DNA from: Candidatus Aenigmatarchaeota archaeon | GTDB lineage: Archaea; Aenigmatarchaeota; Aenigmatarchaeia; Aenigmatarchaeales; JAHLMR01 | DNA length: 64,000 nucleotides | Reading direction: 5' to 3' | Assembly (NCBI GenBank): GCA_018920255.1 | Contig: JAHLMR010000001.1 | Coordinates: forward strand, 1,058 to 65,057 | Shown here: positions 38,558-61,077 of the stretch, one piece after another | How the letters are laid out: each line of letters opens with the position of its first letter | How positions within the stretch are numbered: the first letter of the stretch is position 1 | The notes under the pieces: generated by a model | Told to the model about the DNA's origin: nothing | Databases searched by the model: none | The model's input: the letters and a program-made list of their open reading frames with translations, nothing else | Program-made: the position numbers and the translations under genes

Positions 38558-38784
38558 TGGCGCCCCTGACGGGATTTTCTCTGAAACTTCTTTACAACTT
38601 CTTTAAAAAAGAAGTTGCATCAAGAAAATTTATCTTTCTTGCTGAAGCTTCTTTCTTAAAGAAAGAAGCTTCTTTGAACCCGTGACCTCTTGCTTTCTTC
38701 TTTAGAGCGCTTCTCATAGCACAGCTCAAACCTTCTATATTAAAATAGAAGGCAAGCGCTCTGTCCAAACTGAGCTACAGGGGC
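38558..38784 (-). tRNA. tRNA-Arg(TCT) with two introns: a canonical 37/38 intron (~51 nt) and a ~100-nt T-loop (59/60) intron. CCA is encoded.
   Basis: Hand-folded. Acceptor GCCCCTG/CAGGGGC, D stem GCTC/GAGC, anticodon stem CTTGC/GCAAG with loop CTTCTA|intron|A, and T stem ACGGG/CCCGT with TTCAAA|intron|T. Confidence 0.7.
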
Positions 38785-38842
38785 ATTTATATAATTATTG
38801 ATAGATAAACTTTTATAAAATAAACACATAATTAATTTTTGT

Positions 38843-54804: not shown

Positions 54805-54893
54805 TGGTAGCCCCGGTAGGATTCGAACCTACGTCTCAAGGTTTCTTCCAATTGACCAGAGCCTTGCATGCTTGACCGCTACACCACGGGGCT
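54805..54893 (-). tRNA. tRNA-Gln(CTG) with a 13-nt canonical anticodon-loop intron; CCA encoded
   Basis: Minus-strand sequence AGCCCCGTGGTGTAGCGGTCAAGCATGCAAGGCTCTGG[TCAATTGGAAGAA]ACCTTGAGACGTAGGTTCGAATCCTACCGGGGCTACCA. It has an A1-U72 pair, a CAAGG/CCTTG anticodon stem and a GTAGG/CCTAC T stem. Confidence 0.6.
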
Positions 54894-56096: not shown

Positions 56097-56609
56097 ATGT
56101 TAAATGGAACTTTTGAAAAAAATAAAGTTATTGTTGAAGGAGAAGGAATAAAAAATTTATTTAATAATGGTTGGTATGGAAATATTGAAAATAATAAACT
56201 TATTTTAGACTTATTTGAAGCAGCATTTCTTTTAGAACGTGGAAAAATAGAAATTTTTAAGGATAATGAAAAAATTAAAATAGATGAATTTTTTGGCATA
56301 TGTTGTAATCTCGATAAAAGTTTTATGTATAAATATTCAGTATATTCTGATTTAAGAAATAGAGGTTTAATAGTAAGAGCTGGATATATTGGTACAGATT
56401 TTAAAGTTTATGAAAGAGGAGCAAAGCCAAATAAAAATGAAAAAATTAAATGGATTGTTTTTGTTTCATCAGAAGAATATCCTTGTATTTTAGAACAACT
56501 TGGAAAAGCAATAAAACTTTCTCAAAATATAAGAGCAACAGCTGTTTGGGCTGTAGTTGATACTGATTTAGATGTTACATATTATATTATAAATTCAATA
56601 ATTCCGTGA
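56097..56609 (+). CDS. endA: tRNA-splicing endonuclease, probable structural (beta-type) subunit
   Basis: EndA fold motif YSVYSDLRNRGLIVRAGYIGTDFKVYERG. The position of the catalytic His reads NEK, so the His is absent. It overlaps the next gene by 4 nt. Confidence 0.6.
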   Translation: MLNGTFEKNKVIVEGEGIKNLFNNGWYGNIENNKLILDLFEAAFLLERGKIEIFKDNEKIKIDEFFGICCNLDKSFMYKYSVYSDLRNRGLIVRAGYIGTDFKVYERGAKPNKNEKIKWIVFVSSEEYPCILEQLGKAIKLSQNIRATAVWAVVDTDLDVTYYIINSIIP

Positions 56610-57157
56610 GAGTTATGAAAATAAAAGGAATTTTGCTAAATAATAGAGTAAGAATATATGATTTTAATAAAGCAAAAAGTATTTATGAGGAAGGATATTA
56701 TGGAAAACTTAAGGAAGATTGTTTAGATTTATCATTAATAGAAGCATGTTATTTATTAGAAAAAGAAAAAATTATTATAGAAGATAGTAATAAAAACCAA
56801 TTAAATTTTGAAGAATTTTATAAAAAGTGTCAAGAAATAGATGAAAGATTTCATATAAAATATATTGTATATTCAGATCTAAGGAATAGAGATTTGCCAA
56901 CTAGAACAGGGTTTAAATTTGGTTGTGATTTTAGAGTTTATAACAGGGGAGTAAAACCAATAAAAAGAGGTCCAAAAGCTCCACATGAACACACGAAATG
57001 GATAGTTTTTGTAATTCCTTATAATTATAAATTTACATTTCCAGAATTTTCTAGAGCAGTAAGACTTGCACATAATATTAGAGCACACATGCTTTGGGCT
57101 GTTGTTGATGAAAATAAAGAAGTTAAATATTTTGAAATAACATTCTTCAAACCATAA
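56606..57157 (+). CDS. endA: tRNA-splicing endonuclease, probable catalytic (alpha-type) subunit
   Basis: YIVYSDLRNRDLPTRTGFKFGCDFRVYNRG, followed by PHEHTKWIVFV with the catalytic Tyr and His candidates. It is a paralogue of the upstream gene. Confidence 0.65.
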   Translation: MRVMKIKGILLNNRVRIYDFNKAKSIYEEGYYGKLKEDCLDLSLIEACYLLEKEKIIIEDSNKNQLNFEEFYKKCQEIDERFHIKYIVYSDLRNRDLPTRTGFKFGCDFRVYNRGVKPIKRGPKAPHEHTKWIVFVIPYNYKFTFPEFSRAVRLAHNIRAHMLWAVVDENKEVKYFEITFFKP

Positions 57158-57296
57158 TGGTGGGGTGGGCGCGACTCCCAGCAACTTCTTTTAAGAAAAG
57201 AAGTTGCGAACCTTCTTTCTTAAAGAAAGGAGGTTTTTTGAACGCGCGACACCACGGTCTTCAGCCGTGTGCTCTCCCGGGCTGAGCTACCACCCC
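57158..57296 (-). tRNA. tRNA-Phe(GAA) with a 63-nt T-loop (59/60) intron; CCA encoded
   Basis: Minus-strand sequence GGGGTGGTAGCTCAGCCCGGGAGAGCACACGGCTGAAGACCGTGGTGTCGCGCGTTCAAA[AAACCTCC...GCTGGGAG]TCGCGCCCACCCCACCA. All four stems pair canonically. Confidence 0.7.
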
Positions 57297-57333: not shown

Positions 57334-57588
57334 TTATTTTTTAATTTTAATAGAATATATCCAAAAATCTTTTGCAAATTTTTCATTTAAAATATTAATC
57401 AACTTTCCTTTTTCTTTCAAATGATTTTCACAAATTTTAACTTCCGCAAGATCTTTTTTTATTTGTTTTTTTATATTAGTTTTTGTAATAATAAAAGAAT
57501 CAAAATATTTATTCTTACAATTTTTAAAACTACATATATTTACATCTTTTCTAAAATCAAAAATTTTTAATAAAAATTCAATGTCTTC
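57334..57588 (-). CDS. Hypothetical small protein (start trimmed to avoid tRNA-Asn)
   Basis: The listed ORF 57334..57672 runs into the tRNA-Asn gene. The internal Met (MEDIEFLLK...) gives an 84-aa Cys/Lys-rich product. Weak. Confidence 0.2.
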   Translation of the reverse strand, partial: EDIEFLLKIFDFRKDVNICSFKNCKNKYFDSFIITKTNIKKQIKKDLAEVKICENHLKEKGKLINILNEKFAKDFWIYSIKIKK

Positions 57589-57604
57589 CATTATTTCACC
57601 AAAA

Positions 57605-57793
57605 TGGCGCCTGGGACAGGATTTTCTTCGAAACTTCTTCGAAACTTCTTTTAGAAAAAGAAGTTTCATCAAGAAAATTTGTCTTTCTTGATGAACCTTC
57701 TTTCTTAAAGAAAGAAGGTTTTTTGAACCTGTGACCTAGTGGTTAACAGCCACTCGCTCTTTGTTGTTGAAATTCCAACTGAGCTACCCAGGC
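57605..57793 (-). tRNA. tRNA-Asn(GTT) with a ~100-nt T-loop (59/60) intron and a ~13-nt extra insertion in the D-loop; CCA encoded
   Basis: Minus-strand sequence GCCTGGGTAGCTCAGTTGG[AATTTCAACAACA]AAGAGCGAGTGGCTGTTAACCACTAGGTCACAGGTTCAAA[intron]TCCTGTCCCAGGCGCCA. Confidence 0.65.
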
Positions 57794-60937: not shown

Positions 60938-61077
60938 GCCCCTGTAGCTCAGTTTGGACAGAGCGCTTGCCTCCTAAGCAAGATGTCGCGCGTTCAAAGA
61001 ACCTTCTTTCTTTAAGAAAGAAGGTTCGCAACTTCTTTTCTTAAAAGAAGTTGCTGGGAGTCGCGCCAGGGGCGCCA
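60938..61077 (+). tRNA. tRNA-Arg(CCT) with a 62-nt T-loop (59/60) intron; CCA encoded
   Basis: Sequence GCCCCTGTAGCTCAGTTTGGACAGAGCGCTTGCCTCCTAAGCAAGATGTCGCGCGTTCAAA[GAACCTTC...GCTGGGAG]TCGCGCCAGGGGCGCCA. Its exons are almost identical to tRNA-Arg(TCT) at 38558-38784. Confidence 0.7.

What the first reader, a model, noticed from the sequence alone, without database searches (positions are those of the whole stretch)
56097..57157. Adjacent alpha/beta tRNA-splicing endonuclease genes located immediately upstream of two of the intron-bearing tRNAs
Two paralogous EndA-fold ORFs overlap by 4 nt. The downstream copy keeps a His in the catalytic position (PHEHTKW). The upstream copy has NEK there and so looks like a structural subunit. 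This is the heterotetrameric (alpha2beta2) architecture, which is known to cut relaxed bulge-helix-bulge motifs and to correlate with non-canonical intron positions. The genes sit within 150 bp of tRNA-Phe and tRNA-Asn, which carry T-loop introns, so enzyme and substrates are linked at one locus. The catalytic Lys could not be placed by eye.
Basis: partly seen in the sequence, partly recalled or inferred. Interest (0 to 1): 0.55.

Follow-up and report, generated by a model that had tools for sequence, protein, structure and literature searches.

The report
Two-subunit tRNA-splicing endonuclease lacking canonical lysine
Two adjacent genes in this Aenigmatarchaeota genome encode a structural and a catalytic subunit of the enzyme that cuts introns out of tRNAs, a known kind of enzyme, but the catalytic subunit, like its whole lineage, has alanine where every studied relative has an essential lysine.

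Summary
ORFs 56097-56609 and 56606/56615-57157 are full-length EndA (tRNA-intron endonuclease) paralogs, 40% identical, from a Candidatus Aenigmatarchaeota MAG. The downstream copy keeps Tyr112 and His129. The upstream copy has Lys at the His site.

Comparison with 80 related species supports a heterotetramer through complementary degeneration:
- Single-copy relatives and the His-less copies keep the acidic L10 assembly loop.
- Catalytic copies that have a partner have lost it.
- The partner has lost His and most of the basic "L3" loop.

The pair most likely arose by a duplication inside Aenigmatarchaeota, separately from the crenarchaeal and Nanoarchaeum beta subunits.

- The catalytic Lys could not be placed because it is absent. 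The position is Ala or Ser in all 200 close relatives examined, but Lys in 132 of 146 broader EndA representatives.
- According to the literature, broad specificity tracks the L3 loop, which is present here, not the subunit type.
- The tRNA-Asn/tRNA-Phe/endA linkage is old synteny that also holds where tRNA-Phe has no intron. The tRNAs lie on the opposite strand, and tRNA-Asn is about 450 nt away.

The T-loop (59/60) introns are real. Verdict: a new variant of a known enzyme type, of moderate interest.

The parts
56097..56609 (+). Gene for the structural (beta-like) EndA subunit, 170 aa. It has full-length N- and C-terminal domains.
   Evidence: Pfam PF02778 at 4e-18 and PF01974 at 8e-16. The AlphaFold model has pLDDT 92 and TM 0.91 to 1a79. 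An adjacent orthologue is found in 16 other species loci.
56442..56444 (+). Lys116 codon of the structural subunit, at the position of the catalytic His (NEKIKW).
   Evidence: Alignment to M. jannaschii EndA. In the orthologues this column holds K, N, E, S, G, T, A, V or R, never His.
56559..56585 (+). Acidic L10 loop of the structural subunit (D155-T-D157-L-D159-V-T161-Y-Y163), aligned to Mj DADGDIVYY.
   Evidence: D155, D157, T161 and Y163 are invariant in 25 orthologues. The same motif is kept in single-copy relatives.
56606..57157 (+). Gene for the catalytic (alpha) EndA subunit. It is 183 aa from the GTG at 56606 or 180 aa from the ATG at 56615.
   Evidence: Pfam PF01974 at 3e-24 and PF02778 at 3e-17. 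It is 100% identical to the NCBI 'tRNA-intron lyase' of a Ca. Aenigmatarchaeota MAG. The model has pLDDT 91 and TM 0.83-0.88 to 1a79.
56939..56992 (+). Active-site stretch from Tyr112 to His129, including the basic L3 loop G115-VKPIKRGPKAPHE-H129 (183-aa numbering).
   Evidence: Tyr112 and His129 align to Mj Y115/H125 and NEQ Y86/H102. The loop is homologous to the N. equitans loop GVIPKKGKRSEREH. G115, G122, K124, E128, H129, T130 and K131 are invariant in 34 relatives.
57083..57088 (+). Ala160-His161 codons. Ala160 occupies the position of the canonical catalytic Lys (Mj K156, NEQ K133, MKA K334).
   Evidence: Gapless alignments RLAHNIRAHMLWAVVD versus RVAHSVRKKLLIAIVD, RVAHSTRKKMLMGIV and RLAHSVRKDFVLAVV. 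The position is Ala or Ser in 120 of 120 clusters and 80 of 80 species loci.
57107..57133 (+). Degenerate L10 loop of the catalytic subunit (D168-ENKEVKYF176).
   Evidence: In all 17 paired catalytic subunits and in L013 the D-x-[DE]-x-D-V-T-Y-Y motif is lost. It is kept in the other 63 single-copy relatives.
57158..57296 (-). tRNA-Phe(GAA) gene, convergent with endA and abutting its stop codon. It carries a 62-nt intron at T-loop position 59/60 (57175-57236).
   Evidence: In-silico removal of the 62 nt gives an ARAGORN tRNA-Phe(GAA). A BHB-like fold with T-stem, bulge AG|U, helix UUCA:UGGG and AA|A lies within 2.2 kcal/mol of the MFE.
57605..57793 (-). tRNA-Asn(GTT) gene with a 100-nt T-loop (59/60) insert (57622-57721) and a D-loop insert of about 12 nt.
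   Evidence: ARAGORN calls tRNA-Asn(GTT) only after both inserts are removed. It shares the hairpin module found in three other tRNA introns of the window.

Best explanation
The two genes form a small operon for an (alpha-beta)2 heterotetrameric tRNA-splicing endonuclease (EndA).

Roles of the subunits:
- The upstream product is the structural subunit. It has lost the general-acid His and most of the basic L3 loop. It keeps the acidic L10 loop that, in solved EndAs, plugs into a basic pocket of a catalytic subunit in the opposite dimer.
- The downstream product is the catalytic subunit. It keeps Tyr112, His129, the bulge-recognition Arg153 and the basic L3 loop next to the active site. Its own L10 loop has decayed, so it depends on the partner to assemble.
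- Two alpha-beta dimers would place two active sites at the spacing needed to cut both bulges of a bulge-helix-bulge motif.

Origin: the pair arose by duplication of an L3-bearing, single-gene (alpha4-type) EndA within Aenigmatarchaeota, followed by complementary loss of functions.

Chemistry: it is presumably the RNase A-like 2'-O-transesterification of other EndAs. The canonical transition-state Lys is Ala here and throughout the clade, so another residue must contact the scissile phosphate. Candidates are the residue one position later (His161 here; Asn, Lys or Arg in relatives), the invariant Lys124 or Lys120/Arg121 of the L3 loop, and Lys131.

What is shown and what is inferred:
- Shown: family membership, fold, residue pattern, conservation and the complementary degeneration.
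- Inferred: heterotetramer assembly, activity, which residue replaces Lys, and that the L3 loop lets the enzyme accept the relaxed T-loop motifs.
For: - Family and fold of both proteins.
- His is present in the downstream copy only.
- Among 81 loci, 17 have the adjacent His-less paralog. Their catalytic partners, plus L013 whose contig begins inside the gene, all have a degenerate L10. The other 63 single-copy genes and all 17 structural copies keep VD-x-[DE]-x-D-[VC]-T-Y-Y.
- The literature states that L10 decides heterotetramer assembly (PMC2761253).
- The structural family is under constraint: 26 invariant columns across 25 orthologues, including D155, D157, T161 and Y163.
- The genes are tightly coupled, with gaps of -4 to +31 nt in 14 of 17 pairs and longer spacers in the other three.
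- Apart from two representatives of their own family (P0225, P0286), structural subunits are most similar to Aenigmatarchaeota catalytic EndAs, at up to 57% identity. They sit among them in NJ trees. They share that clade's NIRA..LWAVVD motif, including the Ala.
- The L3 loop is homologous to the N. equitans loop, which is reported to lie next to the triad and to carry residues expected to widen specificity (PMC3488258; PMC5829648).
- Substrates exist: all five tRNA genes recognised in the window carry introns, four of them at position 59/60.
Against: - The canonical Lys is missing, and K282A abolishes cleavage in ARMAN-2 EndA (PMC3488258). Activity therefore cannot be taken for granted.
- No biochemical or structural data exist for any member of this clade.
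- Bootstrap support from simple NJ is weak: monophyly of the structural subunits 55%, of the paired catalytic subunits 80%, and nesting of the structural clade within Aenigmatarchaeota 33%.
- The pocket residues that should receive L10 were not mapped.
- The rest of the genome was not searched for further EndA genes. There are none in the 64-kb window.
Confidence: 0.8

Rival explanations
1. The pair is a split alpha'2 enzyme. A fused two-unit EndA gene, with a structural N-terminal unit and a catalytic C-terminal unit, broke into two ORFs.
For: The gene order (structural, then catalytic) mirrors alpha'2 domain order. NCBIfam NF006795, a 350-aa fused EndA model, matches the upstream protein over profile positions 2-162 and the downstream protein over 178-349. 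Fused relatives carrying an L3 loop exist, for example P0181.
Against: Both scores are far below the model cut-off (140 and 166 bits against 501). The structural subunit is closest to single-unit Aenigmatarchaeota catalytic EndAs, at up to 57% identity, not to N-terminal units of fused enzymes. In NJ trees the alpha'2 N-units and both units of P0181 fall elsewhere. The sister lineages are single-copy alpha4-type genes with an intact L10.
Confidence: 0.07
2. The catalytic subunit works alone as a homotetramer. The upstream copy is then a decaying duplicate or has another role.
For: Most Aenigmatarchaeota relatives have a single EndA gene (63 of 80 loci). The catalytic copy has every unit needed except L10.
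Against: Its L10 loop is degenerate exactly and only in lineages that have the partner. The upstream copy is conserved in 17 species with invariant L10 residues, an intact ORF and tight operon coupling.
Confidence: 0.08
3. Because the catalytic Lys is absent, the enzyme is inactive or only binds RNA. Splicing would then be done by something else.
For: Ala sits at the Lys site. K282A kills ARMAN-2 EndA.
Against: Tyr, His, the Thr/Ser following His, Arg153 and the L3 loop are invariant across 200 relatives. This is the only EndA type recovered from 80 species of a phylum whose tRNA genes carry introns. No other enzyme family is known to cut BHB introns; this last point rests on established knowledge and was not tested here.
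Confidence: 0.05

Closest known systems
Nanoarchaeum equitans (alpha-beta)2 EndA, NEQ205 and NEQ261 (PDB 3IEY)
   Same: It is also a DPANN enzyme with two subunits, one catalytic and one structural. The catalytic subunit carries the same basic loop between Tyr and His (GVIPKKGKRSEREH versus GVKPIKRGPKAPHEH). It has no CSL or ASL loop. It has an aromatic residue at the second bulge-recognition site (Trp versus Phe180). It serves a genome rich in disrupted tRNA genes.
   Different: NEQ205 keeps the canonical Lys133, whereas this enzyme has Ala160. NEQ261 gave no sequence match to the upstream protein at E below 0.01 and ranks only 29th by fold, so the structural subunits have separate origins. 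The NEQ genes are not adjacent (NEQ205 and NEQ261 by locus number); here the two genes form an operon.
Methanocaldococcus jannaschii alpha4 EndA (PDB 1A79)
   Same: It is the best sequence and fold match for both window proteins (E 1e-31 and 3e-26; TM 0.83-0.91). It has the same two-domain unit. The L10 loop DADGD resembles the structural subunit's DTDLD.
   Different: It is a single gene forming a homotetramer. It has no L3 loop and keeps Lys156. It is reported to cut only strict BHB motifs.
Crenarchaeal (alpha-beta)2 EndA (Aeropyrum pernix 3P1Z/3AJV, S. tokodaii 2CV8, P. aerophilum 2ZYZ)
   Same: It shows the same logic of complementary degeneration: the catalytic subunit carries the triad, and the structural subunit supplies L10.
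   Different: Crenarchaeal alpha subunits carry the N-terminal CSL loop with its key Lys (absent here) and lack L3. Their beta subunits are far more diverged, and in P. aerophilum truncated to 93 aa. The canonical Lys is present.
ARMAN-2 epsilon2 EndA (PDB 4FZ2, 9W2K)
   Same: It is a DPANN enzyme with a loop at the L3 position (GAKPIKENNEWIHSKH) and an H-S-K motif. It cleaves T-loop introns with relaxed motifs.
   Different: It is a three-unit single polypeptide. Broad specificity comes from the ASL loop (Lys161). The canonical Lys282 is present and essential.
Single-copy Aenigmatarchaeota EndA (63 of the 80 related loci)
   Same: It belongs to the same Lys-less, L3-bearing family and is 48-64% identical to the window's catalytic subunit.
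   Different: It has one gene, an intact L10 loop and usually Lys or Arg one residue after the Ala (RAK or RAR). It is presumably an alpha4 homotetramer.

Membership tests
Archaeal EndA / tRNA-intron lyase (Pfam PF02778 + PF01974; TIGR00324) | N-terminal and C-terminal EndA domains detectable by profile | tested here: met
   Both proteins score above the Pfam cut-offs (65/58 bits and 62/85 bits against cut-offs of 21/27) and above the TIGR00324 cut-off (78.8 and 104.4 bits against 59.6).
Archaeal EndA / tRNA-intron lyase (Pfam PF02778 + PF01974; TIGR00324) | EndA fold | tested here: met
   AlphaFold models have pLDDT 91 and 92. The top Foldseek hit for both is 1a79 (TM 0.83-0.91), followed by other EndA structures.
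Archaeal EndA / tRNA-intron lyase (Pfam PF02778 + PF01974; TIGR00324) | Catalytic Tyr and His in the catalytic unit | tested here: met
   Tyr112 and His129 align to Mj Y115/H125 and NEQ Y86/H102. Both are invariant in relatives.
Archaeal EndA / tRNA-intron lyase (Pfam PF02778 + PF01974; TIGR00324) | Catalytic Lys (Mj K156, AFU K287, ARMAN-2 K282) in the catalytic unit | tested here: not met
   Ala160 occupies the site in gapless alignments to three solved EndAs. The site is Ala or Ser in 120 of 120 clusters and 80 of 80 loci, against Lys in 132 of 146 broader representatives.
Archaeal EndA / tRNA-intron lyase (Pfam PF02778 + PF01974; TIGR00324) | Bulge-recognition pair (Arg seven residues before the Lys site, plus a C-terminal Arg or Trp) | tested here: inconclusive
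   Arg153 is present and invariant. The C-terminal site, aligned to NEQ Trp151, is Phe180 in paired catalytic subunits and Arg in many single-copy relatives. Whether Phe can do the job is untested.
(alpha-beta)2 heterotetrameric EndA | Two distinct genes: one with the catalytic His, one without | tested here: met
   His129 in one copy against Lys116 in the other. The same split occurs in 16 other species.
(alpha-beta)2 heterotetrameric EndA | Acidic L10 loop conserved in the structural subunit and dispensable in the catalytic subunit | tested here: met
   All 17 structural subunits keep an acidic L10 of the D-x-D-x-D/S-[VIC]-T-Y/F-Y type, and D155, D157, T161 and Y163 are invariant in 25 orthologues. 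The loop is degenerate in all 17 partnered catalytic subunits and intact in unpartnered relatives.
(alpha-beta)2 heterotetrameric EndA | Physical alpha2-beta2 assembly with two active sites | not testable with these tools
   Only single-chain predictions without coordinates were available.
(alpha-beta)2 heterotetrameric EndA | Orthology to the crenarchaeal or Nanoarchaeum beta subunit | tested here: not met
   No known beta subunit appeared among the sequence matches at E of 0.01 or below. Known beta subunits rank 28th to 38th by fold, behind the alpha subunits. The nearest relatives are Aenigmatarchaeota alpha subunits.
Broad-specificity EndA (loop-bearing) | Inserted specific loop near the active site: L1 (CSL), L2 (ASL) or L3 (Nanoarchaea/ARMAN-2 loop) | tested here: met
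   L3 is present: 7 extra residues relative to Mj between Tyr and His, alignable with the NEQ loop. L1 and L2 are absent: the N-terminal domain aligns to Mj with a single one-residue gap. Loop definitions follow PMC5829648.
Broad-specificity EndA (loop-bearing) | Cleavage of relaxed BHB or BHL motifs at non-canonical positions | not testable with these tools
   Only the substrates could be inspected. The 59/60 introns can form T-stem / 3-nt bulge / 3-4 bp helix / multiloop structures.

The most novel reading that the evidence does not exclude
Aenigmatarchaeota EndAs may be the first natural splicing endonucleases that work without the canonical Tyr-His-Lys triad. In this reading the transition-state Lys was lost from its helix-end position after the basic L3 loop had brought redundant positive charge into the active site. 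Its role would now be played by an L3 residue (invariant Lys124, or Lys120/Arg121) or by the polar residue one position downstream (Asn, His, Lys or Arg). That would be a case of catalytic-residue migration. Within this lineage, the alpha4 to (alpha-beta)2 transition was also replayed independently, with textbook complementary loss of L10 in one copy and of His and L3 in the other.
Probability: 0.5. Interest if true: 0.6.

Novelty: new variant of a known kind. Interest (0 to 1): 0.45.

Why it matters
Reviews of EndA/TSEN enzymes treat Tyr-His-Lys as universally conserved (PMC6379350, PMC5829648, PMC12397907), and the Lys-to-Ala mutant of ARMAN-2 EndA is dead. A phylum-wide lineage with natural Ala at that site gives a direct way to ask how the transition state is stabilised and whether the DPANN L3 loop takes part in catalysis rather than only in substrate binding.

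The pair also offers a young, clean example of how a homotetramer becomes an obligate heterotetramer. Ancestral-type single-copy relatives are still available for comparison. The two subunits are only about 40% identical, yet complementary losses are already fixed.

For annotation, both genes are currently labelled 'tRNA-intron lyase', although one cannot be catalytic. Four of the window's five tRNA genes are invisible to standard tRNA finders because of their 59/60 introns.

Tried and rejected
- ARAGORN and Rfam at gathering score found only one tRNA in 64 kb. The Rfam E-value mode gave sub-threshold tRNA fragments at 57726-57793 and 60938-60994 and spurious PyrR and miRNA hits on the intron hairpins. 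The tRNAs had to be reconstructed by in-silico splicing.
- The identity of the doubly interrupted tRNA at 38559-38790 could not be settled by deletion scanning. Arg-TCT is only a guess based on its 5' half.
- The split-alpha'2 idea, prompted by NF006795, was rejected on similarity and tree placement.
- P0181, the best hit in the representative library, was tested as a possible fusion of this operon. Its units fall elsewhere in the tree.
- The enzyme-next-to-substrate linkage was rejected, because the same synteny holds where tRNA-Phe has no intron and the intron sequence is absent from related loci.
- The first bootstrap run used a distance formula that produced NaN values and is void. The repeat gave only weak support, so the tree alone is not relied on.
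- Literature searches found no mention of Lys-less EndAs or of an Aenigmatarchaeota alpha/beta pair. The library is incomplete, so this is absence of evidence only.
- The structure tools return no coordinates, so distances from candidate Lys residues to the active site could not be measured.
Full report
**What is there.** The window has about 25% G+C. ORFs at 56097-56609 (170 aa) and 56606-57157 (183 aa) lie on the + strand. Each hits both Pfam EndA domains far above the curated cut-offs: tRNA_int_endo_N at 4e-18 and 3e-17, tRNA_int_endo at 8e-16 and 3e-24. Each also exceeds the TIGR00324 endA cut-off. The two proteins are 40% identical (E 3e-40). The downstream protein is 100% identical to an NCBI 'tRNA-intron lyase' of a Candidatus Aenigmatarchaeota MAG (P0001). 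The upstream protein is 99% identical to another protein from the same source (P0121). A Logan contig carries the same two genes side by side. AlphaFold models built from family alignments are confident (pLDDT 91.2 and 92.3). Their best PDB match is M. jannaschii EndA (TM 0.83-0.91), followed by the other archaeal and human EndA/TSEN structures. No further EndA gene is present in the window.

**Start codon.** The 4-nt overlap depends on the GTG at 56606. NCBI starts the protein at the ATG at 56615, giving 180 aa and a 5-nt gap. In 14 of 17 pairs (the window's and 16 related ones) the spacing is -4 to +31 nt, most often a stop codon, then 1-8 nt, then ATG. Operon-like coupling is solid. The overlap itself is not.

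**Catalytic residues.** Alignments to solved EndAs are nearly gapless in the C-terminal domain.
- The downstream protein has Tyr112 (Mj Y115, NEQ Y86) and His129 (Mj H125, NEQ H102).
- At the Lys site it reads RLAHNIR-A-HMLWAVVD, against Mj RVAHSVR-K-KLLIAIVD, NEQ RVAHSTR-K-KMLMGIV and M. kandleri RLAHSVR-K-DFVLAVV. Ala160 therefore replaces the canonical Lys (Mj K156, NEQ K133, MKA K334).
- The upstream protein keeps the Tyr (Y105), has Lys116 in place of His (NEKIKW), and also has Ala at the Lys site.

**The missing Lys is a lineage trait, not an error.**
- In the 120 best protein clusters the site is Ala (116) or Ser (4).
- In 80 species-representative loci from GTDB genomes, nearly all labelled Aenigmatarchaeota, it is Ala or Ser in every catalytic gene.
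- In an exhaustive HMMER search of 1.84 billion cluster representatives, 132 of 146 Tyr+His EndA units among the best 150 hits have Lys. Nine have Ala or Ser. Of the eight proteins these come from, seven have the long L3 loop typical of the query's lineage and one is a non-L3 fused enzyme. Four have Thr.
- Reviews and structural papers describe the triad as conserved in all EndA types (PMC6379350; PMC5829648; PMC12397907). K282A abolishes cleavage by ARMAN-2 EndA (PMC3488258). I found no paper describing a Lys-less EndA, but the searchable library is incomplete.

**What might replace the Lys (inference only).**
- In the model, Ala160 sits in the short turn between helix 145-157 and strand 161-167.
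- The next residue is Lys or Arg in 47 single-copy relatives. In nearly all other catalytic subunits it is Asn, His, Gln, Ser or Thr. In structural subunits it is freely Leu, Val, Ile, Thr or Glu. This suggests a constraint tied to catalysis.
- Basic residues enriched in the Lys-less clade relative to Lys-bearing EndAs are Lys124 (99% versus 2%), Arg121 (89% versus 2%), Lys120 (99% versus 26%), Lys131, two residues after His (98% versus 48%), and Arg114 (100% versus 47%) (183-aa numbering).
- Lys120, Arg121 and Lys124 lie in the loop GVKPIKRGPKAPHEH. This loop is homologous to the N. equitans loop GVIPKKGKRSEREH and is called L3 by Kaneta et al. It is reported to sit next to the triad and to carry charges expected to broaden specificity.

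**Evidence for a heterotetramer.** Of 81 loci, counting the window's own contig, 17 have a His-less paralog next to the catalytic gene. In 16 it lies immediately upstream, and in L005 it is 1 kb upstream. The L10 loop separates three classes cleanly.
- The 63 unpartnered genes keep VD-x-[DE]-x-D-[VC]-T-Y-Y, like Mj DADGDIVYY.
- The 17 structural subunits keep the same motif (here VDTDLDVTYY). D155, D157, T161 and Y163 are invariant in 25 orthologues.
- All 17 partnered catalytic subunits have a degenerate, often basic loop (here VDENKEVKYF). So does L013, whose contig starts inside the gene.
- In solved EndAs the acidic L10 of one subunit plugs into a basic pocket across the dimer-dimer interface. 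Swapping L10 is enough to change assembly (PMC2761253).
- The structural subunits, conversely, have lost His and 6-7 residues of L3.
- This reciprocal loss is the classical subfunctionalisation signature of (alpha-beta)2 EndAs. It argues that the catalytic subunit here cannot tetramerise alone. Assembly itself is inferred, not shown.

**Origin of the pair.**
- Apart from two representatives of its own family (P0225, P0286), the structural subunit's best hits are Aenigmatarchaeota catalytic EndAs, at up to 57% identity.
- By sequence it matches alpha-type PDB chains (Mj 3e-26) and no known beta subunit at E of 0.01 or below.
- By fold, known beta subunits rank only 28th to 38th.
- It shares the clade's NIRA..LWAVVD motif, including the Ala.
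- NJ trees place structural and partnered catalytic subunits as two roughly congruent clades inside the Aenigmatarchaeota radiation. NEQ205 and the N-terminal units of fused enzymes fall outside.
- Bootstrap support is weak (55%, 80% and 33%). The case therefore rests mainly on similarity and shared derived characters.
- The NCBIfam hit to halves of a 350-aa fused model suggested a split alpha'2 enzyme. The scores are far below the cut-off, and the tree and similarity data do not support that origin.
- Kaneta et al. 2018 list N. equitans as the (alpha-beta)2 example in DPANN and note L3-bearing alpha4 enzymes in several DPANN lineages. An Aenigmatarchaeota alpha/beta pair is not mentioned there.

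**The neighbouring tRNAs.**
- Directly after the stop codon, on the minus strand, lies tRNA-Phe(GAA) (57158-57296) with an encoded CCA. Removing 62 nt between A59 and U60 yields a sequence that ARAGORN calls tRNA-Phe.
- tRNA-Asn(GTT) (57605-57793, minus strand) needs removal of a 100-nt insert at the same position plus about 12 nt in the D-loop.
- tRNA-Arg(CCT) at 60938-61077 carries a 62-nt insert that differs from the Phe intron at 2 of 62 positions by direct comparison.
- A fourth interrupted tRNA lies at 38559-38790. The same hairpin module occurs in all four, with zero matches expected by chance.
- The junctions can adopt T-stem / 3-nt bulge (AG|U or AA|U) / 3-4 bp helix (UUCA:UGGG or UUC:GAA) / AA|N, leading into a multiloop of hairpins. 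This lies within 0.3-5.8 kcal/mol of the MFE.
- The geometry mirrors the canonical anticodon-loop BHB shifted to the T-arm, with a relaxed inner side.

**Is the enzyme-substrate linkage meaningful?** I think not.
- In 41 of the 80 related loci a tRNA-Phe-like sequence lies 80-3132 nt upstream of endA on the same strand. It is often preceded by tRNA-Asn. In 22 loci ARAGORN calls it without an intron.
- The window's intron sequences were found in none of those loci.
- The linkage is therefore inherited synteny that predates these introns. In the window the endA pair is simply inverted relative to the tRNAs.
- All five recognisable tRNA genes in the window carry introns, so any neighbouring tRNA would be an intron-bearing one.

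**Verdict.**
- The core call holds: a structural plus a catalytic EndA subunit, probably forming an (alpha-beta)2 enzyme. It is strengthened by the comparative L10, His and L3 pattern.
- It is a known kind of enzyme. It is also an apparently independent, young instance, in a lineage whose catalytic subunit lacks the canonical Lys.
- I rate it as a new variant of a known kind, with moderate interest (0.45).
- The more novel reading is that the third catalytic residue has moved. It is open (about 0.5) and can be tested directly by mutagenesis.

Noticed in passing
window 38559-38790(-), 57158-57296(-), 57605-57793(-), 60938-61077(+); hairpin module at 38645, 57209, 57694, 61000: Four tRNA genes carry homologous inserts at T-loop position 59/60, built from the same hairpin modules (62 nt in Phe and Arg-CCT, about 100 nt in Asn and the 38.6-kb tRNA). 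The Phe and Arg-CCT introns differ at 2 of 62 positions and their T-arms are identical. This looks like an intron family that has spread between tRNA genes. The sequence was not found in the flanks of 80 related loci.
   Followed up: partly
window 54805-54893 (-): ARAGORN reports a tRNA with a 4-base anticodon 'ctgg', and Rfam scores the region 55.8 bits. By eye it reads as tRNA-Gln(CTG) with a 13-nt intron at the canonical 37/38 position.
   Followed up: partly
window 57605-57793 (-), D-loop region: tRNA-Asn has a second insert of about 12 nt in the D-loop (AGTTGG-AATTTCAACAAC-AAAGAGC). Its exact boundaries are ambiguous, because many deletions of 8-17 nt restore an ARAGORN call.
   Followed up: partly
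window 38559-38790 (-): This doubly interrupted tRNA has a 5' part identical to that of tRNA-Arg(CCT) as far as the anticodon stem. It also has an insert of about 50 nt near the anticodon loop. Its identity was not resolved; Arg-TCT is a guess.
   Followed up: partly
L038, L046, L053, L057, L060, L064 and about 35 other related loci, 80-3132 nt upstream of endA: The order tRNA-Asn, tRNA-Phe, endA on one strand is conserved synteny across Aenigmatarchaeota. In the window the endA pair is inverted relative to the tRNAs.
   Followed up: yes
P0181 (representative library, 360 aa): This is a fused two-unit EndA with an L3 loop. It has Ser at the Lys site, followed by Lys. The N-terminal unit has an intact L10 and the C-terminal unit a degenerate one. 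It is an alpha'2-like enzyme in the Lys-less lineage, whereas Kaneta 2018 states that the alpha'2 type is missing from DPANN. Its source organism is unknown.
   Followed up: partly
P0244, P0274, P0282, P0310 (representative library): This is a second small group of single-unit EndAs. They have Tyr and His but Thr at the canonical Lys site, and no L3 loop. The Lys may have been lost more than once.
   Followed up: no
catalytic subunit C-terminus, window 57143-57154 (TFFKP); related loci: The residue aligned to the N. equitans bulge-recognition Trp151 is Phe in catalytic subunits that have a partner, and Arg in most single-copy relatives (xxRxKP). This parallels the Arg-to-Trp difference reported between alpha4/alpha'2 enzymes and (alpha-beta)2/epsilon2 enzymes.
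   Followed up: no
window 57334-57672 (-): A small ORF lies between tRNA-Phe and tRNA-Asn. As listed (112 aa from a TTG start) it overlaps the 3' end of tRNA-Asn. A start at the ATG at 57591 (85 aa) avoids the overlap. It was not characterised.
   Followed up: no
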